Source: a virus | Length of the DNA: 64,000 nucleotides | IMG/VR virus record: IMGVR_UViG_3300022858_000345 | Span: 8,602-72,601 of that record | Direction: 5' to 3' (one strand) | Part shown: piece after piece, positions 6,725 to 57,965 of the stretch | How positions within the stretch are numbered: position 1 is the stretch's first letter | Layout: every line of letters begins with the position of its first letter | Made by a program: the position numbers and the translations under genes | Notes under the pieces: generated by a model | Seen by the model: only the letters and a program-made list of their open reading frames with translations | Told to the model about the DNA's origin: nothing | The model's database searches: none

Positions 6725-7423
6725 ATGACAATGAAAGGAAAAAAACATTCAGATAAAAGTAAGAAAAAAATGTCTATTAGTCATTCAGGGCATGGAACAA
6801 GTGAGGATACTAAGAAGAAGTTAAGCCAAGCTTTAATAAAGGCTTATACAGAAGGTAGAAAGAGTAAACATAAATCTTTAGAGCAAAGGAAAAAAATTAG
6901 TAATACATTAAAGGGTAATATACCTTGGAATAAAGGAAAGAAATTATCTGAGGAACATAAGAAAAAAATAGGTATGGCTAGAGAGGGTAAAAAGTTTCCA
7001 AATTTAAGTAGAGCTATGCTAGGTAGAAAGGTTAGTTTAGCAACTAGAGAAAAAATTGGGTTGGGTAATAAGGGTAAAATAGAATCTATAGAAACTAAGA
7101 AGAAAAAAAGTATTGCTAATACTAAGGAAAAAAATCCAGCTTGGAAAGGAGGTATTTCTCAAGAGAATCTAAAATGTAGGCAAGGATATAAGTATAAAAC
7201 TTGGGTTAGACAAGTATTAAAAAGAGATAATAATTCTTGTAAAGTATGTCAGAGAGCTACTGACATAGTGTGCCATCATTTAGAAGGGTTTGATACTAAT
7301 ATAAAACTAAGATTTGAGGTAAGTAATGGAGTGTCTTTATGTAGGGATTGTCACGCAAAGTTTCATAAAAAATATGGATATGGTAATAATACTAAACAAC
7401 AAATAAATGAGTTTATTAAATAA
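6725..7423 (+). mobile_element. Free-standing NUMOD3-repeat HNH homing endonuclease
   Basis: K-rich HSxxxKKKMS/PWNKGK repeats, WKGG, CKVC...HH...NGVSLCRDCH. Promoter TTGCTA-17-TACAGT starts at 6673. Confidence 0.88.
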
Positions 7424-7937
7424 AGATAGCATAGTTATTGCTTGCGACCCTAGTTTTTGTAGTACAGGAATTGCTATTTTTAAAGGGGAAGATTTAATTC
7501 ATAAATGTACTATAAAAACTAGTACTAAAGATGAGTATAGGTTTGAGATTATAGGAATAGAGTTTAAAAAGCTTTTAGCTTATTTTCCAACTGTATTAGT
7601 AATAGAGTCACAGTATATTAGCCCAAAATTTTCTAATATAAATACATTAAGGGTTGTGGAGGTAAAAGGATTTATGGAAGGGCTTTTTATGTATCATTGC
7701 TTAGAATCAGGAATTAAACCTTTAATGGTAGAAGTAGCTCCAAAGGAAGCTAAGAAATTTATAGGAGTTATTGGTAATAATGACACTAAGAAGCAGGTAC
7801 AGGTTTTAGTAGAGCAGAGATTTCCTGAACTAAAAAAAGTTAATCAAGATGAAGCAGATGCAATTGCTATTGGATTAACAGGTATTGAAAAGCTTAATTC
7901 TCAGCAATTATTACAAAAATATAAAGATAAAATATGA
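7407..7937 (+). CDS. RuvC-like Holliday junction resolvase
   Basis: IACDPSFCSTGIAIF, VIE and DEADAIAIG RNase H-fold catalytic motifs. Confidence 0.85.
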   Translation: MSLLNKDSIVIACDPSFCSTGIAIFKGEDLIHKCTIKTSTKDEYRFEIIGIEFKKLLAYFPTVLVIESQYISPKFSNINTLRVVEVKGFMEGLFMYHCLESGIKPLMVEVAPKEAKKFIGVIGNNDTKKQVQVLVEQRFPELKKVNQDEADAIAIGLTGIEKLNSQQLLQKYKDKI

Positions 7938-10750
7938 CCAAATTTATACTAAGAGATTATCAGGAACAATGTTTAGATAAGATTATTTCTAACGCCAGAA
8001 AAGGAGCTTTGAAACAGGTAATAGTTCTTGCTACAGGATTAGGTAAGACTGTTATTTTTGGGCATTTACCAACAAAGGTAAAAGAGAAATCAGGAAAGAA
8101 AACTCTTATTTTAGCTCATAGGGAGGAATTGCTTGACCAAGCCGCAGATAAATTAAGGTTAATTGACTCTGATTTAAAAGTAGATATAGAACAAGGAAGT
8201 AGAAAAGTGGAGGGAGATGTAGACGTTGTTGTAGCTAGTGTTCCGACTTTGGGGAGAGAAGGTAGTGAGAGAATAAAGAAATTTAATCCAGAAGAATTTG
8301 GTTGTATAATTGTAGATGAGTGCTTTGTAGCAGGAACTAAGATAGATGGAAGAAATATAGAAGATATTAAAATAGGGGATTATGTAAATAGTTTTAATGA
8401 GAAAACAAGGAAGGTAGAAAAGAAAAAAGTATTAAGGTTGTTTAAGAATAAGGTGAAAGATAAACTAGTTAAAGTATATTTAGATAATGGTAATCATATA
8501 GTATGCACACCCAATCATCCATTTTTCTGTGGGGGTAGGTATATTTCTGCTATAAATTTAAAAGAGCATTATGTATTGACAAACATCATGCAATTTGCTA
8601 ATTATATAAGAGATGCAAAAAAGATATATAAAACCAAAAAAGTGTATAGTTTGCCAAAAGACTTATCAACCGAAGTCTTGGAATTGTTATATGGTCCCGA
8701 TTTGTTCAGAAGATTGCAAAAAGGTGAGGAGGAAAGAGAGAAGAAAAAAAGTAGTTTTACCTTGTTTAAATTGTGGGAAAAAGGTTGTAGCTTGTGGCAT
8801 AAATCAGTTGTCTTTAGCTCGAAGAGGGAGGGCATATTGTTCAGAGTCATGCAAGAAGACATACTTGAGCAAATTGAGTTCGACTACAATGAGCAAAACA
8901 AACAAAAAATATGCCTCAGAAAGAATGCGAAAAAACAATCCTATGAAAAATCCAGAGTCAGTGGAGAAGATGAGGAAAAAAATGATTGGAAGAACATTTC
9001 TCAGTCGAGGAGGAAATGGGAAAATGACGAAACAACAAATAAAATTATGGCTCTCTTTAGGTTTACCGATAGAGGCATTAGAGTATCCAATAAAGACCTC
9101 AAAAGTAAAACATTTGTTTATTTCCTTACCAAATTACTATTCTCCAGACATAGGAATAAAAGATGTAAAATTAGCTATAGAGGTAGATGGGAAGACCCAC
9201 AAGTTAAAGAAATGGAGGTTTTTGGACAAGAGAAAGACAGAAGTTCTACAAGCGTTAGGGTGGTCAGTACTGAGGTTTTGGAACGAGGAAGTAGATTCCC
9301 GGCTAGAGGAGTGTGTGAAGACGGTTACGTCTACAATTTTGAAGTTGAGGGAAACAACAACTACTTTGCCAACGGAATCTTAGTACATAATTGCCACCAC
9401 TCAATAGCTAGTACTTATGTTAATATATTTAGATATTTTGGGGTATTAAAAGGGGAAGAACATGGAAGCCCTAAATTGCTTGTAGGGTGTACGGCCACTC
9501 CTAGTAGAGCCGATCATGAAGGATTAGATAAAATATTTGATAGAATTACTTTCACTTATACTTTAAGACAAGGAATTGAGTCTAGTTATTTAGCCCCTAT
9601 CAAAGCGTATACAGTTAGTACCTTAGCGGATTTAACTAAAGTTCATACTAGAATGGGGGATTTTGTAGAAAAAGAATTATCAGAAGCTATTAATACAGAG
9701 GAGAGAAATAAAATAGTGGTTAATAGTTACTTAGACATAGTTTCAGGCGGTAAAGCCCTAGTATTTGCTTCTGATGTACAGCATACAAAAGACTTAACGT
9801 CTTATTTTAGAGGAGTAGGGGTAAAAGCTAGTTGTGTGTTAGGGGAAACAGATAGAGGGGTTAGAAAAGGGATAATAGAAGATTTTGCTAGTGGAAAGAT
9901 AAAAGTATTAATTGGATGTGGTGTTTTTACAGAAGGATTTGATGAGCCTTCTATTGAAGCGGTTATGATGGCTAGACCTACTAAAAGTTCTGTTCTTTAT
10001 CAGCAAATGGTAGGTAGAGGAACTAGGCTATGTGAAGGAAAAGCAGAATTAAAATTAATAGACTTTGTAGACAATACAGGTAAAAATTCAATAATGTCTT
10101 TGCCTCAGTTGTTTGGAGTACCTAAAACATTAAAAGCAAAGAAGGGGAAAGATATTATGGAATGGGTTGGGCAAGCAGAACAAATAACTGATTTATATCC
10201 AGAGTATCCTTTAGATACCATAGACGATTGGAGCGAGGAAAATATCGAAAAAATAGTAAAAGAGATAGATATATTTGCCAAAGCTGAATTACCAGAAGAA
10301 GTAAAAACAAATTCTCAATTTACTTGGGAGAAGCAAGGAGAGGATTCTTATAAATTACAATTCCCAGCTTTAGAAGGAATAAAACAAGAAATTACTATTA
10401 AATCAAATATGTTAAATACATATAATATAGAGGTAGTCAGCTTAATAGAAGTTGCTCCTGATTACATAAATGGATATAAAAAATGGAAAAAAACAGATAC
10501 TATAGATGTAGGATCTTATGGTGATTTATCAGAAGCTTTAAAGCAAGGAGATACTTGGATAAAAGAAAATAAACCAGAGTTTGAAAGAATGTTTGACCAA
10601 AAAAGTCAATGGCGTTCAAATTCTGCGACTGAGAAGCAGATTAGTTTATTAAAAAAATTAGGAGTTCCTATACCTAAAATTGGATTTAATTCTGGCCAAG
10701 CGTCAGTTCTCATAGGGCGTGCTTTGTCTGAAAGTAAAAAAAGAAGTTGA
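7934..10750 (+). CDS. SF2 DExH helicase (IRC3/UvsW-like), intein-containing
   Basis: LRDYQ Q-motif, ATGLGKT, DE|CHH split by the intein, TATP, TEGFDEP, QMVGRGTR. Confidence 0.93.
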   Translation: MTKFILRDYQEQCLDKIISNARKGALKQVIVLATGLGKTVIFGHLPTKVKEKSGKKTLILAHREELLDQAADKLRLIDSDLKVDIEQGSRKVEGDVDVVVASVPTLGREGSERIKKFNPEEFGCIIVDECFVAGTKIDGRNIEDIKIGDYVNSFNEKTRKVEKKKVLRLFKNKVKDKLVKVYLDNGNHIVCTPNHPFFCGGRYISAINLKEHYVLTNIMQFANYIRDAKKIYKTKKVYSLPKDLSTEVLELLYGPDLFRRLQKGEEEREKKKSSFTLFKLWEKGCSLWHKSVVFSSKREGILFRVMQEDILEQIEFDYNEQNKQKICLRKNAKKQSYEKSRVSGEDEEKNDWKNISQSRRKWENDETTNKIMALFRFTDRGIRVSNKDLKSKTFVYFLTKLLFSRHRNKRCKISYRGRWEDPQVKEMEVFGQEKDRSSTSVRVVSTEVLERGSRFPARGVCEDGYVYNFEVEGNNNYFANGILVHNCHHSIASTYVNIFRYFGVLKGEEHGSPKLLVGCTATPSRADHEGLDKIFDRITFTYTLRQGIESSYLAPIKAYTVSTLADLTKVHTRMGDFVEKELSEAINTEERNKIVVNSYLDIVSGGKALVFASDVQHTKDLTSYFRGVGVKASCVLGETDRGVRKGIIEDFASGKIKVLIGCGVFTEGFDEPSIEAVMMARPTKSSVLYQQMVGRGTRLCEGKAELKLIDFVDNTGKNSIMSLPQLFGVPKTLKAKKGKDIMEWVGQAEQITDLYPEYPLDTIDDWSEENIEKIVKEIDIFAKAELPEEVKTNSQFTWEKQGEDSYKLQFPALEGIKQEITIKSNMLNTYNIEVVSLIEVAPDYINGYKKWKKTDTIDVGSYGDLSEALKQGDTWIKENKPEFERMFDQKSQWRSNSATEKQISLLKKLGVPIPKIGFNSGQASVLIGRALSESKKRS
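8321..9391 (+). mobile_element. Intein (357 aa) in the helicase DExH motif II
   Basis: N-terminus CFVAGTKI, block B CTPNHPF, C-terminus VYNFEVEGNNNYFANGILVHN, +1 Cys. Splicing restores IVDECHH. Confidence 0.95.
8613..9383 (+). CDS. Zn-finger + DUF559/Vsr-like endonuclease nested in the +1 frame of the helicase intein
   Basis: CxxC/CSxxC repeats, MRKNNPM, then YSPDIG..LAIEVDGKTH...D..K...L..LGWSVLRFWNEEV. Lies entirely within the intein. Confidence 0.85.
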   Translation: MQKRYIKPKKCIVCQKTYQPKSWNCYMVPICSEDCKKVRRKERRKKVVLPCLNCGKKVVACGINQLSLARRGRAYCSESCKKTYLSKLSSTTMSKTNKKYASERMRKNNPMKNPESVEKMRKKMIGRTFLSRGGNGKMTKQQIKLWLSLGLPIEALEYPIKTSKVKHLFISLPNYYSPDIGIKDVKLAIEVDGKTHKLKKWRFLDKRKTEVLQALGWSVLRFWNEEVDSRLEECVKTVTSTILKLRETTTTLPTES

Positions 10751-10805: not shown

Positions 10806-11642
10806 ATGGGAAAGTATATAGTGACCGAAGGGCATAAACAAAAAATAGCAAAAGCTAGAAAAGGGTTTATACCTTCTAAAGAGCATAGGGAAAAGCTGTC
10901 TAAGGCTAGTTTAGGTAAGAAAAAGACTCTGGAACATTGTAAAAATATTAGTAAAGCTCATTTAGGGCAGAAAGCCTGGAATAAAGGAGTTCCTATGACA
11001 GTGAAAGCTAAAGAGAAATTATCTAAAAGTTTAAGTGGAAAGATTCCTTGGAATAAAGGTAAAAGAATGTCTAAGGAATATAGAAAGAAGTTGAGTGATA
11101 GTCATAAAGGTTATAAGGTTTCTGAAGAAACTAAGAAAAAAATATCTAAAGCGCATAAAGGAAAAAAAATATCTGAGGAGCAGAAAGAGAAAATAAGTAA
11201 AACTTTGACAGGCAGAAAAAGAACTAAAGAAGAACGAAAAAATATTAGTTTGGGGTTGAAAGGTAGAAAAGCTTGGAATAAAGGAATACCTGTATCGGAA
11301 GAACAGAGGATACAACTATCCCTAGCAAATAAGGGTAAAAAATTATCTACAGAACAAAGATTAAAAAGACTTAAAACTTGCCCTAAAGGGGCAGATGTTT
11401 GGAATTGGAAAGGTGGAGTAACTTCAGAAAATGCTAGAATTAGGGGAAGCTTAAAAATGAGATTATGGAGAGAAGCAGTATTTAAGAGAGACGACTATAC
11501 TTGTCAAGAGTGCGGTAAAAGAGGGGTTTATTTAGAAGCACACCATATTAAAAAGTTTTCTACGCATCAAGAGTTAATGTTTGAAGTTAGTAATGGAGTT
11601 ACATTATGTAAGGAGTGTCACAAAATAGAGACATTTAAGTAA
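10806..11642 (+). mobile_element. Free-standing NUMOD3-repeat HNH homing endonuclease
   Basis: Several AWNKG/PWNKG repeats, WKGG, RDDYTCQEC, LEAHH, NGVTLCKECH. Promoter TTGATT-16-TATAAT at 10747-10774. Confidence 0.9.
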
Positions 11643-11848
11643 TAAATTTTAACCAAAAACACTATGATTCGTATGTCATTAAATGAAGAAGACTTTAATA
11701 CTTTAATCACAGGAGGGGAAGTAGTTAAAGAAGGAGTTACACTAATATTAAAAGATATTGGGTATGCAACTATGTGTGAAAAGCTAAAAAAAGCTATGGT
11801 AAAAGACGGATTTATTAAACAATAAAATTATAATAACACAAGTGTAAA

Positions 11849-11916
11849 AACTTGAAAAAGTTAAAAAAGTATATTATAATGTAAATGTTAAATAATTAAA
11901 TAACTAACAAAAAATG
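11849..11916 (+). promoter_or_regulatory. Promoter/translation-start cassette copy 1 (TTGAAA-17-TATAAT)
   Basis: -35 at 11852-11857, -10 at 11875-11880; near-identical to 12095-12163. Confidence 0.8.
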
Positions 11917-12060
11917 AATTTAGTTTTTTACGCCACAGTAATACAGTTAATCGTAATTATTTGGTATTTATCTACTAGGACTGAATATGATTTAGTTATA
12001 TTAGTGGGTAATTTTTTTACTACAATATTATTAATATTTGTACTTATTTCACAATCTTAA
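11914..12060 (+). CDS. Small hydrophobic (two-TM-like) 48-aa protein
   Basis: MNLVFYATVIQLIVIIWYLSTRTEYDLVILVGNFFTTILLIFVLISQS, directly after a strong promoter; not in the ORF track. Confidence 0.5.
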   Translation: MNLVFYATVIQLIVIIWYLSTRTEYDLVILVGNFFTTILLIFVLISQS

Positions 12061-12094
12061 CTATACAATATTTTTATAAAAATGCAAGTTTAAA

Positions 12095-12163
12095 TACTTG
12101 AAAAAGTTGAAAAAGTATATTATAATGTATATGTTAGATAAATAAATAACCCACAAAAAAATG
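12095..12163 (+). promoter_or_regulatory. Promoter/translation-start cassette copy 2 (TTGAAA-17-TATAAT)
   Basis: -35 at 12098-12103, -10 at 12121-12126. Confidence 0.8.
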
Positions 12164-12295
12164 CCTAAAGAAGTAAATAAAAATAAATTTAAAGAGTTAG
12201 TAGATGAGACTTTGGAAGCACAAATGGATGCTCTAAGAGATGATGAAGGATTTGTGCAAAGTTTACCAGATGCTATTGTTAGTATTTTAAAATAA
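12161..12295 (+). CDS. Small acidic 44-aa protein
   Basis: MPKEVNKNKFKELVDETLEAQMDALRDDEGFVQSLPDAIVSILK, after promoter copy 2. Confidence 0.5.
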   Translation: MPKEVNKNKFKELVDETLEAQMDALRDDEGFVQSLPDAIVSILK

Positions 12296-12313
12296 TTTAT
12301 AACCAACAAAAAA

Positions 12314-12652
12314 ATGAATCATTTACAAACAAATGAAGTAGGAAAGGAGTTCGGAGAGCTAGTAGATAATACTATTGCTCTACAAAAACAAATTAAAAAA
12401 TTAGAGAATGGAAAACTAGCGGAGTTGAAAAAGGAAATTGGAGGGCATAAAGAAGAATTAAGAAAAGAAATGGATAGAAGAGGTATAAATAAATTAGATG
12501 GAGGTAAAGGTAATGTTTTATTAATAGATAGAAAAGGGTCTATAGTAGTAGATTTTGATGATATTATGAAAGATTTAGGAGTATCTGATTTGAAAAAATA
12601 CCAGACTCAAAAAGAAGGATCACAATTCATTAAAGTAACAGCTAATGTCTAA
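12314..12652 (+). CDS. Hypothetical coiled-coil phage protein
   Basis: 112 aa; overlaps the polymerase start. Confidence 0.6.
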   Translation: MNHLQTNEVGKEFGELVDNTIALQKQIKKLENGKLAELKKEIGGHKEELRKEMDRRGINKLDGGKGNVLLIDRKGSIVVDFDDIMKDLGVSDLKKYQTQKEGSQFIKVTANV

Positions 12653-15600
12653 GTTCATTGTAAAAAATAAGGAGGAGTATAAAAAGATTATAGATAAAAT
12701 TTTAGTTTCATCTTCTGAATATGTGGCTTTAGATACAGAGACAGAAGAATTTGATAAGGAGAAGACGCACGCATTTGATTTAGGGTTGTATGGAATAGGG
12801 TTATATGGGAAGGACTTTAAGATTTTTATTCCTGCTAAATTTGTAAAGAAAGACTTTCAGAAGGTTTTAGATAAATTTATTTTTATTTTTCATAACGCAA
12901 AATTTGATTTATTAATTTTAGAAAAGCACGGGTTTAATATAGATAAGTTAAAATATCACGATACTTTAATAATGAGTTGGTTACTAAATGAAAATAGACG
13001 CTCACATAAATTAAAAGATTTAGCTCATTCGGTTTTAAGAGTTAAAGAAGAAAAGATTATTAAATATGGGGATGTTATTAAAAAGCCTATATTAGAGGAG
13101 TATGGTATGTTTCCTGAGGAATTTAGAATGGATTTGGCTAGGTGGATGATAAAGTTAGGGCTTTATTGTATAGATGATTGTACTTATACATATAAGTTAT
13201 TTTTTAAATTTAAACCTAAACTTGAAGAACAAAGTATATGGAGTATTTATGAAAGATTAGAATTAGAAACAGTAAAAGTTTTAATGTATATGGAATTGAG
13301 AGGAATAAAAGTAAATTGTAAGTATTTGGAAAAATTAGGAAAGAAAATTGAAACTGAGCTAATTCAGATTCAGGCAGATATTTGGAAAGGAGCGGGAAAA
13401 GAGTTTGATATAAATAGCCCAAAACAACTATCTCAGGTTTTATTTACTGAAAAAGGTTTTAAGTTAACAGATGATTATAGAACACCAACGGGGGCTTATT
13501 CTACTAATGAAGCGGCTTTGAAGTATTTAAAAGAGGCGTACCCTAAAGATGAAGTGTTAGGGGGTATTTTAAAATATCGGGAATTATTTAAGCTACACAG
13601 TGCTTTTATTGTAGGGCTTTTAAGCAAACAAAGAGATGGAGTTATACATACTTCATTTAAACAACATGGAACAGTCACAGGTAGGCTTTCATGTGTAGCT
13701 AAAGATACTCCTATTTTAATATTAGAGGGGCATGTGCCTATTTCAAAAATAGACTTGCATAATAAGAACCACCAATATACAATAGGTAGCGGAGGGGAGT
13801 TAAGAAAGATAAAGAATTTAATATTTAATGGGTATGGAAAATTGTATGATGTTAAAACAGGAGATTCAAAGCTTAGATGTTCAGGAGACCACAGATTGTG
13901 GACAAGTTCTGGGTGGCGGAAAGCTGAAGATTTGCGAGAGGGAGATAAAGTATTCTTTAATAGAAGCTCCTTTAAAGTTCAAGGATTTGGGGTTGGGGAG
14001 AATAATATTAGACGAAAACAGTTTTGTGCTTTTAAGAATAAAGGAGAAGTTGACTCATCAAAAGATACGTCAGCTATCAAACAATGTTATAAAAAGAAGG
14101 TGGATACTTTTATCTCAAAAAGTTTATTTAAAAAAATACGGGAAAGATTTAAAAAAGATTCACAAGATAAATCTAAGTCTTGCGGCGTTGGGAAACAAAA
14201 ATGGAAAGGGGAAAGGGAAAGTTTCTTTAGACGCAAAACAACTATTAGAGAAAGTTCAGATGGGAAAAAGTATAGGGAGGATAGCAAAAGAGATGCATTC
14301 TACAGAATTTATAGTGAAGTCAAATCTTATGTTGTTAGGTATGCCATTAAGGTATGCAAAAACCCCAAAGCAAGTAGGCACTTGGAGCAAAGAAGATGTC
14401 AGGTTGGTAGAGAAAATTTTTCCAGAGTTTTTAGAAATAGCAAAGAAATTCAAGAAGAACCCCGCGGAATTTTTAGACTTAGTATATGGAAAAGTGTTAG
14501 ATACTTACAAAATTTTATGGTTATTAAAAAAATTGGGGGGTTTGCATGGGCATTATATGGAAACTGGGGCTATAGAGAAATCTCATATATGTTGGGGAAC
14601 GAACAGTTCAGCCAATACTTTATTAGCGAGGGAGTTAAGAATGCAGAGTATAAAGCACATGAGAGAATTCCCTATTGGAAAAAATTATTCTGTAGATTTT
14701 TATTTCCCGATTTCAAATTTAATGGTGGAATTAGATGGAAAACACCACGAAACAGATATAAAAACTTTAGAGAGGGACAAAGAGAAAGAGAAAATTATAA
14801 AAAAGATGGGGATTCGGTTAAAGAGATTTATGTCTACGGAGGGGAAAAACCCAAAATTGCTGTTAAAGAAAATCAAGAAGTTACTATAGATAGCATTGAA
14901 TATATAGGTAGAGGGGAATTATGGGACTTAACAGTAGATGGAGATTCTTCATATATTACAGAAGGGCTAATTAGTCATAATTGTAGTGCTCCTAACTTAC
15001 AACAGTTACCTAGAAGGGATGATGAGTATGATATTAGAAAGGCTTTTATACCTAGAGAAGGGTATACATTTGTTATTTCAGACTTATCTCAAATAGAATT
15101 AAGGATAGCAGCTTCTATCAGTCAAGACCCTACTATGCTTAAGATATTTAATGAAGGTGGAGATATACATGGGGAGACCGCTAAACTGCTCGATTGTGAA
15201 AGAGTAATAGCTAAACAAATTAATTTTGGAATTTTATACGGCACCGCTGCTTTTGGAATGTCAAAAGGTTTAGAAGCCAAAGGAGTGAAGCTAGATGTTA
15301 AAGAAGCAGAGAAGTTTATTAATAGATATTTCTCTAAGTTTAAAAAATTAGAGATACTTATAGAGCAAGCTAAAAATACTTTGAGAAAAAAATACGCAAT
15401 TACTACTGTTTTTAATAGAAAAAGAAGATTCCCAAAATATGCAGAAGCCAGAAAAAATAGAGATTGGAAGTTAGTAGCTCACTGTGAAAGGCAAGCTATA
15501 AATTCTATTATTCAGGGAAGTGCTGCTGATATTATTAAAGTTCAAATGAGAAATTTAAGTAGGGAGTTACCTAAATATGGAGCGTATCTTTTAGTTCAGG

Positions 15601-15746
15601 TGCACGATGAAGTAATTTGTGAAGTTCCTAAGGAAAAAGCTGAGGAAGTTTTAAAGATTGTAGTAGATATTATGGAAAATTCTTATCATCTTAAAGGGGT
15701 TCCAATAGTGGCTAATGGATTTATTAGTGAGGTATGGAAGAAGTAG
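12645..15746 (+). CDS. polA: Family A DNA polymerase (3'-5' exonuclease + polymerase), intein-containing
   Basis: Exonuclease motifs ALDTET, HNAKFD and YCIDD; TGRLS|CSAPNLQQ; motif A DLSQIELR; motif B AKQINFGILYG; motif C VHDE. Confidence 0.95.
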   Translation: MSKFIVKNKEEYKKIIDKILVSSSEYVALDTETEEFDKEKTHAFDLGLYGIGLYGKDFKIFIPAKFVKKDFQKVLDKFIFIFHNAKFDLLILEKHGFNIDKLKYHDTLIMSWLLNENRRSHKLKDLAHSVLRVKEEKIIKYGDVIKKPILEEYGMFPEEFRMDLARWMIKLGLYCIDDCTYTYKLFFKFKPKLEEQSIWSIYERLELETVKVLMYMELRGIKVNCKYLEKLGKKIETELIQIQADIWKGAGKEFDINSPKQLSQVLFTEKGFKLTDDYRTPTGAYSTNEAALKYLKEAYPKDEVLGGILKYRELFKLHSAFIVGLLSKQRDGVIHTSFKQHGTVTGRLSCVAKDTPILILEGHVPISKIDLHNKNHQYTIGSGGELRKIKNLIFNGYGKLYDVKTGDSKLRCSGDHRLWTSSGWRKAEDLREGDKVFFNRSSFKVQGFGVGENNIRRKQFCAFKNKGEVDSSKDTSAIKQCYKKKVDTFISKSLFKKIRERFKKDSQDKSKSCGVGKQKWKGERESFFRRKTTIRESSDGKKYREDSKRDAFYRIYSEVKSYVVRYAIKVCKNPKASRHLEQRRCQVGRENFSRVFRNSKEIQEEPRGIFRLSIWKSVRYLQNFMVIKKIGGFAWALYGNWGYREISYMLGNEQFSQYFISEGVKNAEYKAHERIPYWKKLFCRFLFPDFKFNGGIRWKTPRNRYKNFREGQRERENYKKDGDSVKEIYVYGGEKPKIAVKENQEVTIDSIEYIGRGELWDLTVDGDSSYITEGLISHNCSAPNLQQLPRRDDEYDIRKAFIPREGYTFVISDLSQIELRIAASISQDPTMLKIFNEGGDIHGETAKLLDCERVIAKQINFGILYGTAAFGMSKGLEAKGVKLDVKEAEKFINRYFSKFKKLEILIEQAKNTLRKKYAITTVFNRKRRFPKYAEARKNRDWKLVAHCERQAINSIIQGSAADIIKVQMRNLSRELPKYGAYLLVQVHDEVICEVPKEKAEEVLKIVVDIMENSYHLKGVPIVANGFISEVWKK
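13755..13783 (+). promoter_or_regulatory. Intein-internal promoter TTGCAT-17-TACAAT
   Basis: -35 at 13755-13760 and -10 at 13778-13783, about 45 nt upstream of the ATG of the nested +1 ORF. Confidence 0.6.
13828..14889 (+). CDS. HTH + DUF559/Vsr-like endonuclease nested in the +1 frame of the PolA intein
   Basis: HTH-like KSIGRIAKEMHSTEFIV; C-terminal REFPIGKNYSVDFYFPISNLMVELDGKHH...RD..K...MGIRLKRF. Confidence 0.82.
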   Translation: MGMENCMMLKQEIQSLDVQETTDCGQVLGGGKLKICEREIKYSLIEAPLKFKDLGLGRIILDENSFVLLRIKEKLTHQKIRQLSNNVIKRRWILLSQKVYLKKYGKDLKKIHKINLSLAALGNKNGKGKGKVSLDAKQLLEKVQMGKSIGRIAKEMHSTEFIVKSNLMLLGMPLRYAKTPKQVGTWSKEDVRLVEKIFPEFLEIAKKFKKNPAEFLDLVYGKVLDTYKILWLLKKLGGLHGHYMETGAIEKSHICWGTNSSANTLLARELRMQSIKHMREFPIGKNYSVDFYFPISNLMVELDGKHHETDIKTLERDKEKEKIIKKMGIRLKRFMSTEGKNPKLLLKKIKKLL

Positions 15747-15798
15747 CTTGTTTTTGAGAGAAGTTTAATTTATAATAAGGTTATAGTAAAAAAATAGT

Positions 15799-16401
15799 AT
15801 GTCTAGAAAGTTATCAGAGCAACATAAGAAAAATATATCTAAAGGATTAAAAAAAGCTTATTCAAAGGATAGGGTTGGTTATTGGAAAGGTAAAAGTAGA
15901 AAAGGAATTATTACAGAAGAAGGTAAGAAAAGTATTAGTGATGCTAGAAAAGGTAAAAAACTTTCAAAGGAGCACAAAAAGAAATTAAGTGATAGCCATA
16001 AAGGTAACGCTGGCTACTGGACAGGTAAGAAAGGGCCTAAAAGAACATCAGATACTAGAAGAAAGATGAGCGAGGCTCATAAGAAACACCCAGAAAGACA
16101 TTGGGCATGGAAAGGCGGAGTTACAGAGGGTAATAATAAAATTAGACATTCTTTAGATAACAGGTTATGGAGAGAAGCAGTATTTAAAAGGGATGATTAT
16201 ACTTGTCAGAAGTGTTGTAAGAGAGGAGAAAAAATAGTATCTCACCACATATTAAATTTTGCAGAGCACCCTGAACTAAGATTTGAGATAAGCAACGGAG
16301 TAACTCTATGTAAGGAATGCCATATTTTATTTCATGCTGTTTATAGAAAGAAAGGGAATTGTGAAAAGCAATTAAAAGAATTCAGATACACGATGAAGTA
16401 A
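15799..16401 (+). mobile_element. Free-standing NUMOD3 HNH homing endonuclease
   Basis: K-rich repeats, WKGG, RDDYTCQKC, SHH, NGVTLCKECH. Promoter TTGTTT-17-TATAAT at 15748-15776. Confidence 0.9.
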
Positions 16402-16532
16402 TAGTTGAAGTACCTAAGAAAAAAGCAGAAGAAGTTATGAAGGTTGTAAAAGATATTATGGAAAATGCTTACCATTTAAAAGGAGTACCTATAATAGCTG
16501 ATCCTTTTATTTCAAATTGCTGGAAAAAATAA
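16380..16532 (+). pseudogene. Orphan second copy of the polA 3' end (motif C to stop)
   Basis: Translates IQIHDEVIVEVPKKKAEEVMKVVKDIMENAYHLKGVPIIADPFISNCWKK*, colinear with and the same length as the polA end VQVHDEVICEVPKEKAEEVLKIVVDIMENSYHLKGVPIVANGFISEVWKK*. Confidence 0.9.
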
Positions 16533-16547
16533 TATAACAATAAAAAT

Positions 16548-17405
16548 ATGAAAAAGATTAATGAGGAAGGAGCTAAAAAATTAATACAGTATGGCTCTAA
16601 AGATGTAAAACATTTAGCTATTAAACAAATTAAGGATAAGAAAGGTGTATATAGAAAGCAGAAAGATACTTACTCTGATAAAATTATAGACTATCCAGAT
16701 AGCCCTACAGGAAAAGCCTACATTGGTATTAATAAGTTGCCATTAATGCCTAATGATAATGGTATTGGGTTTAAAGGAGTAGTTCTACAGGATGATGATA
16801 GACGATTTATTCAGTGTTGTGGTTGTGGTAAATGGGCTAAAAAAATTGTCTCTAGTCATATACAAACGTGTTTAGGTATAAGTACTTTTGAATATAAAGA
16901 GAGATTTGAATTAAATAGAACACAAGGATTAGTTAGTGACGAGACTTCTTTAAATTGTACTCAAGCAGCATTAAAAAACAAAAAGTCTGGTGAAAGAATG
17001 AAAAAATATAATAAGGAGTATAGAGAGAAACATGGTCATCATCCGCATTATGTTAAAAATGGTATTAAGTATAGGATACAGAGATTCAATGAGACTAATA
17101 ATGGTAATTGTCCTGAGCAATTAAAAACCAGGTTATATGAATTTATCAGGTGTAATAGAGAGCTACCTAATTCTCATAATAGAGTGTCTTCTATTTATAA
17201 AGCTTTATATAAGAGATTTGGTAGTTTAGGCAAAGCTTTTAAACATATGGGATTACCCGAGTTTATAAGAGTTGGAACTAATTATCATTTAATTTTTGAA
17301 GACGGTACTAATTATAAATTTAATATTAATAAATTTGGAGAAAGAGAAGAAATGTATAAGGTGTTGATGAGTAGATGCTCTGTTTTAAAAAATTCCCAAA
17401 CCTAA
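16548..17405 (+). CDS. Hypothetical DNA-binding protein with Ros/MucR-like Zn-finger segment
   Basis: IQCCGCGKW...SHI...GISTFEYKERFEL. Confidence 0.5.
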   Translation: MKKINEEGAKKLIQYGSKDVKHLAIKQIKDKKGVYRKQKDTYSDKIIDYPDSPTGKAYIGINKLPLMPNDNGIGFKGVVLQDDDRRFIQCCGCGKWAKKIVSSHIQTCLGISTFEYKERFELNRTQGLVSDETSLNCTQAALKNKKSGERMKKYNKEYREKHGHHPHYVKNGIKYRIQRFNETNNGNCPEQLKTRLYEFIRCNRELPNSHNRVSSIYKALYKRFGSLGKAFKHMGLPEFIRVGTNYHLIFEDGTNYKFNINKFGEREEMYKVLMSRCSVLKNSQT

Positions 17406-17410
17406 TAATT

Positions 17411-17905
17411 ATGAAAAAAATTAAACTTACAAAAGGAAAGTATGCAGTAGTAGATGATGAAGATTATCTTTATTTGAATAGATTTAAGTGGTACGCACAT
17501 AAAGTTAATACGCTTTTTTTTGCTTATAGAGCTTTTACGGGATTAAAGGGGAAAAAGGCGTTTTTAAAGATGGAAAATTTTATTGTTTATTGTCCAGTGC
17601 AAAAAGGTATAGCACATTGTAATAGAGACAATTTAGATTGCAGAAAAAGTAATTTAAAAATAGTTTCTTGGTCTGATACTAGGCATAAAAAAACTAGGGT
17701 ATCTTGTAAAAATAGGACTTCAAAATACCAAGGAGTTAGTTTTAATAATAGAATGAAAAATAATAAATGGAGAGTACAAATTCAAAAGAATTATAAACAG
17801 TATAATTTAGGGTATTATAAAACAGAAAATAAAGCTGCTTTAGCATATAATGAAAAGGCTAAAGAGTTGTACGGAAATTTTGCTTGTTTAAATAAAGTGA
17901 CTTAA
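17411..17905 (+). mobile_element. HNH-AP2 endonuclease
   Basis: IKLTKGKYAVVDDEDY, HCNRDNLDCRKSNL, SKYQGVS..WRVQI..YNLGYY..AALAYNEKAKELYGNFACLN. ATG at 17411 is preferred over 17375. Confidence 0.88.
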
Positions 17906-17925
17906 AAAATTTTTAGGTTTGATTT
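17899..17925. repeat. Palindromic motif GACYTAAAAAA-TTTTTAG copy 1
   Basis: Also at 22533-22561 and 40866-40896. Confidence 0.6.
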
Positions 17926-18002
17926 TCTTCGAGAGAGGTGTATCTTGTAAATGAGGTTTCTTGGGGTGTTTGCAATTTAAAGCAATACCTAACCATTTTT
18001 AT

Positions 18003-18749
18003 ATGGAAAAAATAAAGAAACCGACACAAATCTGCGAAATATACCCTACATTAAATAGTGGGGGACATTTTTTTGGGCATCCTATTATGCTTATAAGGCT
18101 ATTTGGAGTTAATTTTAGCGACAAGAATGACTTATATAAGTATACTTGGCAGTTCGGGCAGCAACGGAAGGATTTAGAGATTAATAGAATGCTGATGTCT
18201 AGTGAAGAAATTATCAGTAAAATAAATAGTTTTAAGAAAGGAGATATTTTTAAATGGTGTATTACAGGAGGAGAGCCTTTAAGACAGCAAGAGCAGTTAA
18301 TAGATTTAATAGAGAAGTTTATAGAGTCTCATGGAAAACCTCCAAAGATTGAAATTAGAACAAGAGGACATATAGCTCCTGTAAAAGAATTGGATAAATA
18401 TGTAACTAAATATATAGTAAGCGTTCCTCTATCAAATAGCATGGATGGAGTAGCAAGAGAAACTTTTTCGCATAGAATTAAAGAAGATATTTTAAAAGAA
18501 TTTATTGGTAATAAGAAAGCTTTATTTTTATTTGAGATGAAGCATGATAATGATTTAAAAGAAATAAGAGAGCTACAGCAAATGTTTAATATTTCTGACA
18601 ATAGAATTTGGGTATCGCCTTTAGAGACTAAATTAGGAGCGATGAAAGTAAATGAAGTTTGTGCGTGGAAAGCTTGTTTAAATTTTGGATATAAATATTT
18701 TAATAGATTGTCAGTACAAATATTTGGACCTAATAAAAGAAATGTATAA
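18003..18749 (+). CDS. QueE-like radical SAM homolog lacking the CxxxCxxC motif
   Basis: EIYPTLNSGGHFFGHPIMLIRLFG..YTW, ITGGEPL and C-terminal RLSVQIFG parallel QueE at 26051, but the cluster cysteines are absent. Confidence 0.65.
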   Translation: MEKIKKPTQICEIYPTLNSGGHFFGHPIMLIRLFGVNFSDKNDLYKYTWQFGQQRKDLEINRMLMSSEEIISKINSFKKGDIFKWCITGGEPLRQQEQLIDLIEKFIESHGKPPKIEIRTRGHIAPVKELDKYVTKYIVSVPLSNSMDGVARETFSHRIKEDILKEFIGNKKALFLFEMKHDNDLKEIRELQQMFNISDNRIWVSPLETKLGAMKVNEVCAWKACLNFGYKYFNRLSVQIFGPNKRNV

Positions 18750-18765
18750 TTTAACCCATTAAAAT

Positions 18766-19347
18766 ATGGATTTAAAAGCAGCACCAATTAAAAAAGTAAT
18801 TTTTGCGGAAGGGGCTTCGGCGGGTATTCCTTGTATTTTGCTAGATTGTTTAAGTAAAGAAGCTAAAACTAGGGATGTAAATGAAGTTATTTCAGAACTT
18901 TTAACTATTTCTAAAATTAAAACAGTTTTAGTTAAAGGTAAAATAAGTGAACAAACTGAGATCAAGACAGTTTTAAGTGGTTTATCAGCTAGAGGTAAAT
19001 CTCTTATTTTTATAACACCAGCTTCAGAAGATATTTCTGTTGTAAGAATGGTAAGGAATTTAGCAATTACTTTAGTAGCAAAACCTCCAACAAAAGATGA
19101 AAATAATATAAAACAAAGTAATTTTGGGTATTTAATGGAAACAGACACAGTAAAATTTAATATTAAAAGCTTAGAAGATTATGAGAAAGCTAAAGATTTT
19201 ATACTTATAAAGAAGTTGAAAATTCCAAGTATTGATTTTAGTATTAATAACTGTAAAGATTTTGTAGAGGTATTAACTAAATATTTAGAAGATTGTGAGC
19301 AATTTCTTTTTAAGACAAGAATTACTAAAATATTAACTGATGAGTAA
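18766..19347 (+). CDS. Highly degenerate QueE-like protein
   Basis: IFAEGASAGIPCILL resembles the QueE N-terminus (xQGEGxxxGxPxVF); DTVKFNIKSLEDYE resembles the QueE DxVKFVI motif; no Fe-S motif. Confidence 0.45.
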   Translation: MDLKAAPIKKVIFAEGASAGIPCILLDCLSKEAKTRDVNEVISELLTISKIKTVLVKGKISEQTEIKTVLSGLSARGKSLIFITPASEDISVVRMVRNLAITLVAKPPTKDENNIKQSNFGYLMETDTVKFNIKSLEDYEKAKDFILIKKLKIPSIDFSINNCKDFVEVLTKYLEDCEQFLFKTRITKILTDE

Positions 19348-28806: not shown

Positions 28807-29406
28807 ATGGCAGGAAGAATAGAAATATCGGTAGCGTTAGTAGAAAAAAGAAGGGAGAGAGCCTCCGCATTAAAAATGAAGGGTCTCAGTATTAATAGTA
28901 TTATGAATCTTGTTAATCAAGAAGCTACTATAGAGCAATGGGGAGTGGTTAGTAGGAGGACTATAATGAGAGATATAGCAGCTTATTTTAGTAAGAATAA
29001 ATTAACAGGTGTTGAAGCTAATGAGGAGATGTCTATGTTAAGAGATGCTTATATTTCACAGTATGAGGGTCTTATAGAAAAGATGCACATTAAATTATCT
29101 ACTAAACAAAATTGGAAACCATTTGAAGAGTTTGCAGCTATGGATATTTTAAGAAGGACTCTAGCGGATTTTGCTGAGATAATGAACTGGAATGAAGGAA
29201 GAAAGAATACAAATATACTTTTCCAGCAAAATAACATTTTAACTCCTTACGAAAACGCAGCAAATATAGTGAACAAGCCTAAAGAATTAAAAGCTATTTC
29301 AGCTCTTTGCGATATGATGCTAGATAAGAGACCTATTGATGAAATTGGAGTTGAGGTGCTAGGTGATAGCTATATAAAAGAAGATACAAATGACAACAAT
29401 ACTTAA
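28807..29406 (+). CDS. Putative terminase small subunit
   Basis: N-terminal HTH (GLSINSI..VSRRTIMRDI), directly upstream of and overlapping terL. Confidence 0.65.
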   Translation: MAGRIEISVALVEKRRERASALKMKGLSINSIMNLVNQEATIEQWGVVSRRTIMRDIAAYFSKNKLTGVEANEEMSMLRDAYISQYEGLIEKMHIKLSTKQNWKPFEEFAAMDILRRTLADFAEIMNWNEGRKNTNILFQQNNILTPYENAANIVNKPKELKAISALCDMMLDKRPIDEIGVEVLGDSYIKEDTNDNNT

Positions 29407-32505: not shown

Positions 32506-33870
32506 ATGAAAAAACCAAATGTTATCCAAAAAGCTTACAAAAGCTTAACTGAGCTATTCTCTTTTACTAAAGATGGTCAAAAGAAAGCTATTGCTACGTT
32601 AGGAGGAACAGGTGTTTCTTACTTTGGAAGATTACAAGACCCTTCAAAAACAGGGCTAAAAAAACCAACGAAAGTAACTTTTAATCAGTTACGGGAAGCA
32701 GCTAGGTATGATGCTATTATCAGAATTTGTGTAAATGTTATTAAGAAATCAGTTAGTCAAGCAGAGTGGGCTATAATCCCAAAACAGGAGAGAAAAGAAG
32801 TTAATAAGGCTCAAGTAGATCAAGCTACTAATTTATTTGAAACGATTAATAATCGAGGAGAGAATTTAAGACAAGTATTAGATATGGTATTAGAAGATTT
32901 ATTAGTATTAGATGCTGGAGTAATTGAGAAAGTTTATAATGCTAAAGGAGAGATAGTAGAATTAAATGCTGTAGACGGAGCTACTATCAGACCTAAAATG
33001 GATAAGTATGGAGATTTAGACCCGACTAGTGCTTATGTGCAAGTGATAGGAGACAAAGTAGTAGCTGAATTTGCATTAAATGAATTAATTTATATGGTGC
33101 AAAGTCCGCAAAGCGATATACGATTGTATGGGTATGGGATGTCGCCTATTGAGAGTATTTTATTACAAGTACAGGCAGCTTTAAATGCTGATCTGTATAA
33201 TGCTGAAATGTTTTCTAAAGATAATATCCCTCCAGGTATGTTAGATTTAGGGGATATGTCCCAATCAGAAGCACAACAATTTATATCTGTATGGGATGCC
33301 ACAGTAGTCGGTAGTACTCAGAAGTTAAAATTCCTTTGGGGTGGAGGAGAAAAAAATAATAAAAAGTATATTCCTTTTAACCAAAATAATAAAGATATGC
33401 AGTTTGTGGAATATACAGATTGGCTATCAAGAATTAAATTAGCTACTTATGGTCTTACAGGAATGGACGCAAATATTACTCAAGATGTTAATAGGGCTAC
33501 AGCAGGTGTTCAAGAATCTGTTACAAGTTCTAGAGGTGTAGGAAGTATTTTTAAGTTAGTTGAGGAGTATATTAATAGAGAGATATTTATGCCAATGGGA
33601 TGGGACGATATACAGTTTAAATTTCAAAAGGCTTTAAATATTTCCGAAAAGAAACAGCAAGCAGAAATAGATAAAATTTATGTAGAGGCAGGAATTCTAG
33701 ACCCAGCAGAAGTAGCTATCAGAGAAGGATTTGAAATACCTGAACAAGATGAAGAAGAGATAGATTACTTAGCACCAGCTCCCGAAGAAAAGATTGAAGG
33801 TAAAGAAGATGTGTTAGTGCCAGAAGAAAAGAAGTCTCACTCACATAATTTTAAACCTTTATATGAATAA
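32506..33870 (+). CDS. Portal protein (HK97-like)
   Basis: Position after terL; VDGATIRP, YGMSPIE, PPGML, KDMQF, DVNRATA. Confidence 0.9.
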   Translation: MKKPNVIQKAYKSLTELFSFTKDGQKKAIATLGGTGVSYFGRLQDPSKTGLKKPTKVTFNQLREAARYDAIIRICVNVIKKSVSQAEWAIIPKQERKEVNKAQVDQATNLFETINNRGENLRQVLDMVLEDLLVLDAGVIEKVYNAKGEIVELNAVDGATIRPKMDKYGDLDPTSAYVQVIGDKVVAEFALNELIYMVQSPQSDIRLYGYGMSPIESILLQVQAALNADLYNAEMFSKDNIPPGMLDLGDMSQSEAQQFISVWDATVVGSTQKLKFLWGGGEKNNKKYIPFNQNNKDMQFVEYTDWLSRIKLATYGLTGMDANITQDVNRATAGVQESVTSSRGVGSIFKLVEEYINREIFMPMGWDDIQFKFQKALNISEKKQQAEIDKIYVEAGILDPAEVAIREGFEIPEQDEEEIDYLAPAPEEKIEGKEDVLVPEEKKSHSHNFKPLYE

Positions 33871-57410: not shown

Positions 57411-57965
57411 ATGAATAAAACAGGAAGAAAAATTGGGCATGAAGTTACTAAAGCTACAAGACTTAAAATGAGTTTAGCAGGGAAAGGTCGCAAAGCTTGG
57501 AATAAAGGAATACCTATGTCAGAGGAAGCTAAACTTAAATTGAGCAAAACTAATACAGGAAAAACATGGAGTGAGGAGCATATCAAAAAGAGGTCTATAA
57601 GCATAAAAAAAGCACACTCTACTAAAGGGATGAGGAAGAAAAAAAGTTTATTGCAAAAAGGATCAAAAGGGTCTAATTGGCAAGGAGGTATAACATCTAT
57701 GAATATTTGCGGGAGGAATACATCTAAATATAGGGATTGGAGAGAAGAGGTGTTCAAGCGAGATAACTATGAATGCCAAGAACCAGAATGTAAGAGCAAG
57801 AGAGGGAGTTACATAGAAGCTCATCATATAAAATCTTACTCGAAACACATAGAATTAAGGTATGATATAGGAAATGGTATTACATTATGCAAAAAGTGTC
57901 ATAGCAAAACAATTAAAAAAGAAACACATTATGAGAAAAAATATTTTAAACTACTAGCATTATGA
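57411..57965 (+). mobile_element. Free-standing NUMOD3 HNH homing endonuclease
   Basis: AWNKG, WQGG, RDNYEC, IEAHH, NGITLCKKCH. Promoter TTGCGA-16-TATAAT at 57376-57403 ends 7 nt before the ATG. Confidence 0.9.

What the first reader, a model, noticed from the sequence alone, without database searches (positions are those of the whole stretch)
15594..16532. HNH cassette that duplicated or replaced the polymerase 3' end at catalytic motif C
Seen: the last ~50 codons of polA (QVHDE...WKK*) recur after the HNH gene as a diverged, stop-free, same-length copy (QIHDE...WKK*, 16380-16532) with no start, overlapping the HNH stop. Inference: a mobile unit of [new polA 3' end + promoter + HNH] inserted at the HDE codons and repaired the gene with its own, probably cleavage-resistant, tail, stranding the original tail. 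This is a splicing-free way to home into an essential motif. Recombination between the copies could excise the unit or swap C-termini.
Basis: partly seen in the sequence, partly recalled or inferred. Interest (0 to 1): 0.75.

Follow-up and report, generated by a model that had tools for sequence, protein, structure and literature searches.

The report
Homing-endonuclease cassette replaced polymerase gene tail
A selfish nuclease gene in a salt-lake phage appears to have entered the DNA polymerase gene carrying a foreign copy of the gene's last 50 codons, leaving the original ending stranded downstream as a fossil; this is known from fungal mitochondria but I found no report of it in phages.

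Summary
The last 50 codons plus stop of polA (15594-15746) recur at 16380-16532 with 114/153 nt and 38/50 aa identical and no indel. The next-best ungapped match in the window is 71/153. The second copy has no start, and the HNH stop lies inside it.

The tails diverged mostly under purifying selection (dN/dS 0.25). The orphan fits the family tail profile better than the working tail, which argues against in-situ duplication and decay.

Contigs of one public run show the same [tail 1 + spacer + HNH] behind a different polA. There are no differences over 15642-16226, 5 over 15591-15641 and 14 in the 37 nt upstream. Another contig leaves the HNH 3' end after 16382 for unrelated sequence. Both edges therefore coincide with the edges of the duplication.

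My reading is that a free-standing NUMOD3-HNH homing endonuclease gene was copied in together with the donor's polA tail by one-sided break repair: a homologous join at the motif C codons and an illegitimate 2-3 nt join on the right. This stranded the resident tail.

Nuclease specificity, resistance of tail 1 and excision are untested, and no HNH-less close relative was found. The architecture matches mitochondrial endonuclease "gene hybrids", so this is a new member of a known kind, of moderate interest.

The parts
12645..15746 (+). Family A DNA polymerase gene (polA, 1033 aa) with a 3'-5' exonuclease domain and an intein
   Evidence: Pfam DNA_pol_A E=1.8e-95, DNA_pol_A_exo1 E=7.9e-17, Intein_splicing E=8.4e-11. 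Relatives without the intein are 592-598 aa.
13692..14981 (+). Intein in polA (aa 350-779), between GRLS and CSAPNLQQLP. It is not part of the cassette but lies in the same gene.
   Evidence: Cys at aa 350 and HN/C at aa 778-780; Pfam Intein_splicing.
15594..15746 (+). Tail 1: the working polA 3' end (VQVHDE...WKK*, motif C to stop). Inferred to be foreign and to have arrived with the HNH gene.
   Evidence: In frame with polA. In run X15, 97% identical within the tail and then 100% through the HNH, behind a diverged polA.
15747..15798 (+). Spacer with a promoter-like TTGTTT (15748) - 17 nt - TATAAT (15771)
   Evidence: Not listed by the consensus scan. A similar layout lies upstream of HNH paralog 10806-11642.
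15799..16401 (+). Free-standing NUMOD3-HNH endonuclease gene (200 aa). Its last 7 codons are read from tail 2 DNA in another frame.
   Evidence: Pfam NUMOD3 32.1 bits (cut-off 20.4). HNH 18.3 and HNH_2 19.3 bits are both below their cut-offs. PHROG HNH families E down to 1.2e-12. H150, N166, H175, C136, C171 and C174 are invariant in alignment A3.
15591..16382 (+). Inferred transferred unit (tail 1 + spacer + HNH). The left edge lies somewhere in 15591-15641 and the right edge after 16382.
   Evidence: Identity step in X15 record 20 and a loose end after 16382; counts.
16380..16532 (+). Tail 2: orphan polA 3' end (IQIHDE...WKK*) with no start. Inferred to be the resident tail.
   Evidence: Followed after 15 nt by the ATG of ORF 16548-17405.
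16548..17405 (+). Next gene downstream (285 aa, weak Ros/MucR zinc-finger match). It marks the native downstream context of tail 2.
   Evidence: Pfam ROS_MUCR E=9e-6; no PHROG match.

Best explanation
A free-standing NUMOD3-HNH homing endonuclease gene normally sits just downstream of polA in a related donor phage. I propose these steps.

1. During co-infection, the resident polA was broken at or just 5' of the codons for V-Q-I-H-D-E (motif C).
2. The left end paired with the donor's homologous motif C DNA.
3. Repair synthesis copied the donor's polA tail, the promoter-bearing spacer and the HNH gene.

The polymerase now ends in the donor's tail (tail 1). The resident tail (tail 2) is stranded without a start, and the HNH ORF borrows its last codons and its stop from it.

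Shown: the duplication, its divergence pattern, and linkage of tail 1 with the HNH gene in a second polA background. Inferred: that this HNH made the break, the order of the repair steps, and that tail 1 escapes cutting.
For: 1. The duplication is real and far beyond chance: 114/153 nt against a next-best 71/153.
2. Differences by codon position are 15/5/19 and Nei-Gojobori dN/dS is 0.25, so most divergence arose while both tails were under selection, that is in separate genomes.
3. The orphan scores higher than the working tail against a profile of 21 relatives' tails (95.3 vs 82.4 bits). It is closer to 15 of 21 relatives, further from 2 and tied with 4. It has therefore not decayed.
4. X15 record 20 (736 nt, depth 4) shows 0 differences over 15642-16226, 5 in 15591-15641 and 14 in 15554-15590. 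The upstream part still codes a polA: 8 of 13 changed codons are synonymous.
5. An X15 contig matches up to 16382 and then runs on with unrelated sequence. In the HNH frame that sequence gives three more codons and a TGA that overlaps an ATG (my reading of its 30-letter consensus).
6. The HNH C-terminus is of normal length compared with paralog 6725-7423, whose alignment runs to the equivalent of 16383.
7. No group I or other intron: 0 Rfam matches at E<=1 in 12000-19000.
8. Tail 2's stop lies 15 nt before the next ATG.
9. Precedents. One-sided homing with illegitimate repair at microhomologies in phage T4 is described in passages of review PMC2988022. The same duplicated-C-terminus architecture around mobile endonuclease ORFs in fungal mitochondria is described in passages of PMC3630166.
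Against: - The linkage evidence is one short contig at about 4x depth and one loose end, both from one run of the same habitat. A graph-assembly chimera at the conserved motif cannot be fully excluded.
- The variant is not the exact donor: 5 differences lie inside 15626-15641, and at 3 of these the window agrees with tail 2. I cannot explain this.
- No HNH-less close relative was found, so nobody has seen tail 2 as a working gene end. The best other polA is 66% identical over the 254-aa C-terminal region. No close fragment turned up among proteins of 51-163 aa or 139-445 aa.
- Nothing shows what the HNH cuts. Its Pfam HNH scores are below the curated cut-offs.
- GC content does not mark the cassette as foreign: 0.35 and 0.34 against 0.33 for the window.
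Confidence: 0.68

Rival explanations
1. Passenger model. The same recombinant structure arose by illegitimate or mosaic recombination between two phages at the conserved motif C DNA. The break was not made by this HNH, and the HNH gene was merely carried along.
For: No call tests the nuclease's specificity. Conserved motifs are natural crossover points between diverged phage genes. The identity step shows only that exchange happened there.
Against: The exchanged block begins at the motif and ends exactly at the end of an endonuclease gene. The genome holds four paralogs of this gene, each next to an essential gene: RuvC/helicase, helicase, polA and tape measure. Nuclease genes at exchange boundaries are the documented pattern in phages (PMC10448857, title and abstract seen; passages).
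Confidence: 0.15
2. Reverse polarity. Tail 1 is native, and the inserted unit is [spacer + HNH + tail 2], dropped in after the polA stop.
For: Tail 1 is contiguous and in frame with polA. Composition does not mark it as foreign.
Against: In run X15 the HNH 3' end is joined to something other than tail 2 right after 16382, whereas tail 1 stays with the HNH behind a different polA. Tail 2 has native-looking spacing to the next gene. A unit carrying a start-less gene end downstream of the endonuclease would itself need an earlier event of the kind proposed.
Confidence: 0.08
3. In-situ tandem duplication of the polA 3' end (replication slippage or a very long target-site duplication), followed by divergence of the copies in this lineage.
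For: The copies have the same length and lie 786 nt (262 codons) apart, so they are in the same frame (arithmetic).
Against: The divergence is 25% with dN/dS 0.25. The unselected copy is closer to the family consensus than the selected one and has no stop or indel. The cassette plus tail 1 occurs in a second polA background.
Confidence: 0.05
4. Remnant of an intron-borne HNH: a group I intron at motif C, as with I-HmuI or I-PfoP3I in phage polA genes. Tail 2 would be the true second exon.
For: HNH endonucleases in group I introns of phage family A polymerase genes are well known (PMC3428280, passages).
Against: There are 0 Rfam matches at E<=1 on both strands of 12000-19000. polA is complete without splicing. 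The HNH here has N-terminal NUMOD3 repeats and a C-terminal zinc-type HNH. Its only PDB sequence match is weak (5h0m, E=0.025), and I-HmuI was not matched.
Confidence: 0.02
5. Assembly artefact that strings two strain variants of the polA end together.
For: The window is a metagenome-assembled viral contig.
Against: Ten runs hold 97-100% of the sampled words of 15200-16900. Separate contigs bridge every junction. The polA and HNH proteins recur on 8 and 15 contigs.
Confidence: 0.02

Closest known systems
Mobile endonuclease ORF 'gene hybrids' of fungal mitochondria: Allomyces macrogynus atp6; Glomus sp. atp6, atp9, cox2, nad3 (PMC3630166, passages read; the 1994 Allomyces paper is known to me only through that citation and recall)
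   Same: An endonuclease ORF is flanked by two diverged copies of the host gene's C-terminal coding end. The proximal copy is in frame and foreign. The distal native copy is stranded. Insertion is explained by endonuclease-driven transfer.
   Different: This is a phage, not an organelle. The endonuclease is a NUMOD3-HNH enzyme, not LAGLIDADG or GIY-YIG. Its ORF is separate, with a 52-nt spacer, its own promoter-like site and a different frame, rather than fused in phase as in some mitochondrial cases. The native status of the distal copy could not be checked against a close relative.
[quoted passage not shown]
   Same: Homology on one side only. The other junction forms at a microhomology. This gives a route for an endonuclease-bearing element to enter a site without two-sided homology.
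   Different: That was a laboratory plasmid-phage system with the td intron. Here it is a natural genome, with no intron, and a 153-nt gene end was duplicated as a result.
Intronless homing by free-standing T4 endonucleases (SegB, mobE and others; abstracts of PMC2330249 and PMC2790892 seen; review PMC2988022). The SegF case and its cut-site distance are recalled, not read.
   Same: A free-standing endonuclease gene next to an essential gene. The cut lies at a distance inside the neighbouring gene. The DNA between the cut and the endonuclease gene is co-converted.
   Different: Those events are two-sided and leave no duplicated gene end. Cleavage by the present HNH is not shown.
Genes in pieces made by endonuclease gene insertion (Aeh1 nrdA/mobE; T4-like gp43; review PMC2988022) and 'fractured genes' (PMC2677866)
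   Same: An endonuclease gene lodged in a functionally critical region of a replication gene.
   Different: There the host gene is split into two polypeptides. Here it stays whole because the insert brings its own gene end.
Intron-encoded HNH nickases of phage family A polymerase genes (I-HmuI, I-HmuII, I-BasI, I-PfoP3I; PMC3428280)
   Same: An HNH enzyme associated with a conserved part of a phage polA.
   Different: No ribozyme here. The domain order is different. The insertion sites described in that paper lie in the finger subdomain, and that paper never uses the words 'motif C' (0 occurrences).

Membership tests
Free-standing HNH homing endonuclease gene | HNH (beta-beta-alpha-metal) catalytic motif with conserved His/Asn/His and zinc-binding Cys pairs | tested here: met
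   H150, N166, H175, C136, C171 and C174 are invariant among 5 aligned sequences. PHROG HNH families score E=1.2e-12 to 3e-6. Caveat: Pfam HNH (18.3 bits) and HNH_2 (19.3 bits) are below their cut-offs of 21.4 and 21.
Free-standing HNH homing endonuclease gene | Separate DNA-binding module | tested here: met
   Pfam NUMOD3 scores 32.1 bits against a cut-off of 20.4, at residues 52-91.
Free-standing HNH homing endonuclease gene | Own ORF outside any intron or intein | tested here: met
   The ORF 15799-16401 is separate and lies 52 nt after the polA stop. There are 0 Rfam matches. The polA intein lies elsewhere, at 13692-14981.
Free-standing HNH homing endonuclease gene | Sporadic presence among related genomes, or the same gene in different genomic backgrounds | tested here: inconclusive
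   The same cassette lies behind a second, diverged polA on one contig. No HNH-less close relative was found.
Free-standing HNH homing endonuclease gene | Site-specific cutting or nicking of the allele that lacks it | not testable with these tools
   This needs the enzyme and DNA substrates.
Endonuclease-mediated C-terminal replacement ('gene hybrid', Allomyces atp6 type) | Two diverged copies of the host gene's 3' end flank the endonuclease ORF. The proximal copy completes the gene and the distal copy has no start. | tested here: met
Endonuclease-mediated C-terminal replacement ('gene hybrid', Allomyces atp6 type) | The proximal copy is foreign and travels with the endonuclease gene | tested here: met
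   X15 record 20 has 0 differences over 15642-16226 and 14 in the 37 nt upstream of 15591. This is a single low-depth contig.
Endonuclease-mediated C-terminal replacement ('gene hybrid', Allomyces atp6 type) | The distal copy matches the gene end of close relatives that lack the insert | tested here: inconclusive
   No such relative is available. Indirect evidence: tail 2 is closer than tail 1 to 15 of 21 distant relatives and has native spacing to the next gene.
Group I intron with HNH ORF in phage polA | Ribozyme core recognisable by covariance model | tested here: not met
   0 matches at E<=1 in 12000-19000 on both strands.
Family A DNA polymerase | DNA_pol_A domain with motif C (HDE) and a complete C-terminus | tested here: met
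   Pfam scores 320.6 bits, with profile positions matched to 380 of 381. HDE is present in both tails.

The most novel reading that the evidence does not exclude
The [polA tail + promoter + HNH] block is an adapted, self-sufficient invasion module and not just co-converted flank. By carrying a replacement for everything 3' of its cut site, it could colonise the catalytic motif C codons of polymerase genes too diverged, or too differently flanked, for two-sided homing, with no intron or intein. The orphan tails it leaves would then record its break site and offer a substrate for swapping polymerase C-termini.
Probability: 0.2. Interest if true: 0.6.

Novelty: new member of a known kind. Interest (0 to 1): 0.42.

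Why it matters
The stranded tail is a natural footprint. It marks to within a few bases where a phage polymerase gene was opened, and it shows how an intron-less, intein-less endonuclease gene can sit at a catalytic motif without killing the gene. If the HNH does cut there, the two tails form a ready-made pair of sensitive and resistant targets for working out its specificity. The case also extends the mitochondrial 'gene hybrid' mechanism to phages. It also warns that the last 50 codons of a phage polA can have a different history from the rest, which matters because polA is used as a phylogenetic marker.

Tried and rejected
**Searches for HNH-less or otherwise close relatives with DNA context all failed.**
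- Viral contigs with the C-extein: 17 pattern matches, none a relative.
- Viral contigs with a 22-sequence family alignment: best hit 39% identical.
- Metagenome contigs: 7 loci at 33-37% identity.
- Genome contigs with relative P0010: only 30-34% Devosia loci.
- Tail 2 as the query: 2 loci at 49-50% identity.
- The phage collection by blastn: one 82-nt match at 79.5% in a Staphylococcus phage, under tail 2, which I take for conservation of the motif.

**Protein searches for allele fragments.**
- Proteins of 51-163 aa: best hit 65% identical.
- Proteins of 139-445 aa: best hit 42% identical; only the 7998 candidates sharing most words were scored.
- Cluster look-up: the 2 other full-length members of the polA cluster carry tail 1 and differ from the window's protein at one residue each; the fourth member is a 50-aa fragment.

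**Exact-pattern scans of viral contigs** for the alternative junction and for the spacer found nothing. Earlier notes of this scan held nothing on this sequence or genome.

**Excision.** No contig in the 4 runs laid joins 15594 to 16380. Contigs drop rare forms, so this says little. Two short joints inside the HNH gene (16185->16362 and 16215->16294, sides of 21-24 nt) probably come from paralogs.

**Other orphan gene ends in the window.** None appeared beside the other three HNH paralogs at E<=1e-3.

**How common the arrangement is.** 0 of 46 other fetched loci with a detectable polA tail carry a second tail.

**Literature.** Searches and passages of PMC10448857, PMC2248197 and PMC2988022 gave no phage case of a duplicated gene end beside an endonuclease gene. 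Subscription papers are not covered.


Full report
**Setting.** The window is bases 8602-72601 of a 72.6-kb IMG/VR virus record. All long ORFs are on the + strand. They include a primase-helicase, a RuvC-like nuclease, a helicase, polA, a portal protein, a Mu F-like protein and a tape measure. Runs that hold the stretch are labelled salt lake metagenomes. GC content is 0.33.

**The observation.** polA (12645-15746, 1033 aa) is a family A polymerase with a 3'-5' exonuclease domain and an intein at aa 350-779.
- Its last 50 codons plus stop (15594-15746, VQVHDE...WKK*) recur at 16380-16532 (IQIHDE...WKK*).
- The two copies share 114/153 nt and 38/50 aa, with no gap and no stop.
- The best other ungapped match to tail 1 on the + strand is 71/153.
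- Tail 2 alone matches the last 50 positions of Pfam DNA_pol_A (E=5e-9).
- Its frame is closed six codons upstream and it has no start before an internal ATG at 16437.
- Between the copies lie a 52-nt spacer with TTGTTT-17 nt-TATAAT (below the threshold of the scan) and a 200-aa ORF (15799-16401).
- That ORF has a NUMOD3 motif and a C-terminal zinc-type HNH motif. Its stop lies inside tail 2 in another frame.
- Separate contigs from several runs bridge every junction, so the arrangement is not an assembly artefact.

**How the copies differ.**
- Differences by codon position are 15/5/19. Twelve differing codons are synonymous and 13 are not. dN/dS is 0.25.
- A profile of the tails of 21 relatives (P0002-P0022, 592-598 aa, at most 66% identical in the C-terminal region) scores the orphan at 95.3 bits and the working tail at 82.4 bits.
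- The orphan is closer to 15 of the 21 relatives, further from 2 and tied with 4.
- An unselected copy born in place should be the more degenerate of the two. Here it is the less derived one, so the tails diverged in separate genomes and came together recently.
- The tails share ENxYHLKGVPI, which none of the listed relatives has. The donor was therefore a closer relative than any polymerase in the collections.

**Population evidence.** I laid the contigs of four runs on 14600-17600.
- Run X15 holds window-type pieces (records 18, 19 and 22, depth 2.3-2.6) and also record 20 (736 nt, depth 4.0) on 15521-16226.
- Record 20 has no difference over 15642-16226 (585 nt: most of tail 1, the spacer and 428 nt of the HNH gene). 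It has 5 differences in 15591-15641 and 14 in 15554-15590. Four further differences near the contig's end are not itemised, and 30 letters do not align at all.
- The upstream part still codes a polymerase. Of 13 changed codons, 8 are synonymous. The changes S->A, G->D, Y->H and L->I move towards the family consensus DAHxL.
- So the same tail 1 + HNH block stands behind a different polA, and the step in identity falls where the duplication begins.
- Also in X15, one contig follows the HNH gene to 16382 and then continues with unrelated sequence. Read in the HNH frame, that sequence gives three more codons and a TGA overlapping an ATG, which is the look of an ordinary gene junction.
- Tail 2's similarity to tail 1 starts at 16381. 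The right edge of the block is therefore the left edge of the orphan, with TT (or ATT) shared.
- The HNH C-terminus is of normal length next to its paralog at 6725-7423.

**Mechanism.** The simplest account is one-sided homing.
1. A free-standing endonuclease gene lies about 200 bp downstream of its target inside the neighbouring essential gene, as in T4's free-standing endonucleases (recalled for SegF; review PMC2988022).
2. After a break near the motif C codons, the left end finds homology in the donor.
3. Synthesis runs through the donor's tail, the spacer and the HNH gene.
4. Without homology beyond, the strand is joined to the right end at a microhomology.

Illegitimate repair of this type, with junctions at microhomologies, has been described for T4 intron homing with one-sided homology (passages of PMC2988022). 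The product is what is seen: a whole polymerase with a foreign end, and the resident end left as a fossil.

Steps shown: the structure, the divergence pattern and the linkage. Steps inferred: the nuclease's role, the position of the break and the order of events. Whether tail 1 resists cutting is unknown. Near the junction it differs from tail 2 at 15594, 15600, 15602, 15617-15619 and 15626. That is enough to matter but proves nothing.

**Rivals.**
- The break may not be the HNH's work (passenger model, 0.15).
- The reverse polarity, with tail 2 arriving with the HNH, is contradicted by both X15 contigs.
- In-situ duplication is contradicted by the divergence pattern.
- An intron remnant is contradicted by the absence of any Rfam match.
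- An assembly artefact is contradicted by the bridging contigs.

**Weak points.**
- The linkage rests on one low-depth contig and one loose end from one habitat.
- The variant is not the exact donor. At 3 of the 5 sites in 15626-15641 the window agrees with tail 2, which is unexplained and could be patchy conversion.
- No HNH-less close relative exists in any collection I could search.

**Comparison with what is known.**
- The architecture is that of the mitochondrial 'gene hybrids'. A mobile endonuclease ORF brings a foreign C-terminal end of atp6, atp9, cox2 or nad3, and the native end remains downstream, first described for Allomyces macrogynus atp6 (PMC3630166, passages).
- This case differs in host (phage), in enzyme family (NUMOD3-HNH) and in having a separate, promoter-equipped ORF.
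- In phages, endonuclease genes are known to split genes (nrdA, gp43, gene 60) or to ride in introns of polA.
- My four literature searches and the passages I read gave no phage case of a replaced and stranded gene end. That is not proof of absence.
- Among 46 other fetched loci with a detectable polA tail, none has a second tail.

**Verdict.** It is a new member of a known kind and of moderate interest. The more unusual feature of this genome is the one noted in passing: two inteins whose endonuclease is written in another reading frame.

Noticed in passing
window 13828-14889 (inside the polA intein 13692-14981) and 8613-9383 (inside the helicase intein, gene 7934-10750): Two inteins carry a DUF559/Vsr-like endonuclease ORF in a different reading frame from the intein (Pfam E=5.8e-9 and 4.8e-12). 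Over 353 and 256 codons both the host frame and the endonuclease frame are open, while the third frame has 47 and 35 stops. The chance of one such open frame is about 1e-14 and 6e-11. The host-frame translation there looks like K/R/S-rich filler. This resembles the 'fractured genes' with Vsr-like endonucleases between split intein halves (PMC2677866), except that here the host gene is not fractured. It could be an intermediate form or an overprinted intein linker.
   Followed up: partly
window 29390-32260 and 33863-36367: Two more intein-bearing genes. One is a 956-aa protein with an intein at aa 521-824 that holds an in-frame HNH_3 motif. The other is a Mu F-like head protein with an intein at about aa 260-653. 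That makes four inteins in 64 kb.
   Followed up: no
window 6725-7423, 10806-11642, 15799-16401, 57411-57965: Four paralogous NUMOD3-HNH genes (35-48% identical to the one studied), each beside an essential gene: RuvC-like/helicase, helicase end, polA end and tape measure end. No orphan gene end was found beside the other three at E<=1e-3.
   Followed up: partly
window 16548-17905: Directly after the orphan tail come a 285-aa ORF with a weak Ros/MucR zinc-finger match and an overlapping 176-aa ORF with an AP2 domain. The latter matches PHROG HNH endonuclease families (E=1e-26). The polA 3' flank therefore looks like an island of endonuclease-type genes.
   Followed up: no
window ~11840-11880 and ~12085-12125: There are two copies of a promoter-like repeat, TTGAAA - 17 nt - TATAAT, with near-identical surroundings, ahead of small ORFs.
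   Followed up: no
window 42538-44580 and 45556-48048: Two large neighbouring genes share a 125-aa N-terminal stretch at 74% identity. They may be exchangeable tail-fibre-type modules.
   Followed up: no
window 15626-15641: In this 16-nt stretch the window's tail 1 differs from the X15 variant at 5 sites. At 3 of them it agrees with the orphan tail 2. This could be short-patch conversion between the two tails or could simply mean the variant is not the donor.
   Followed up: partly
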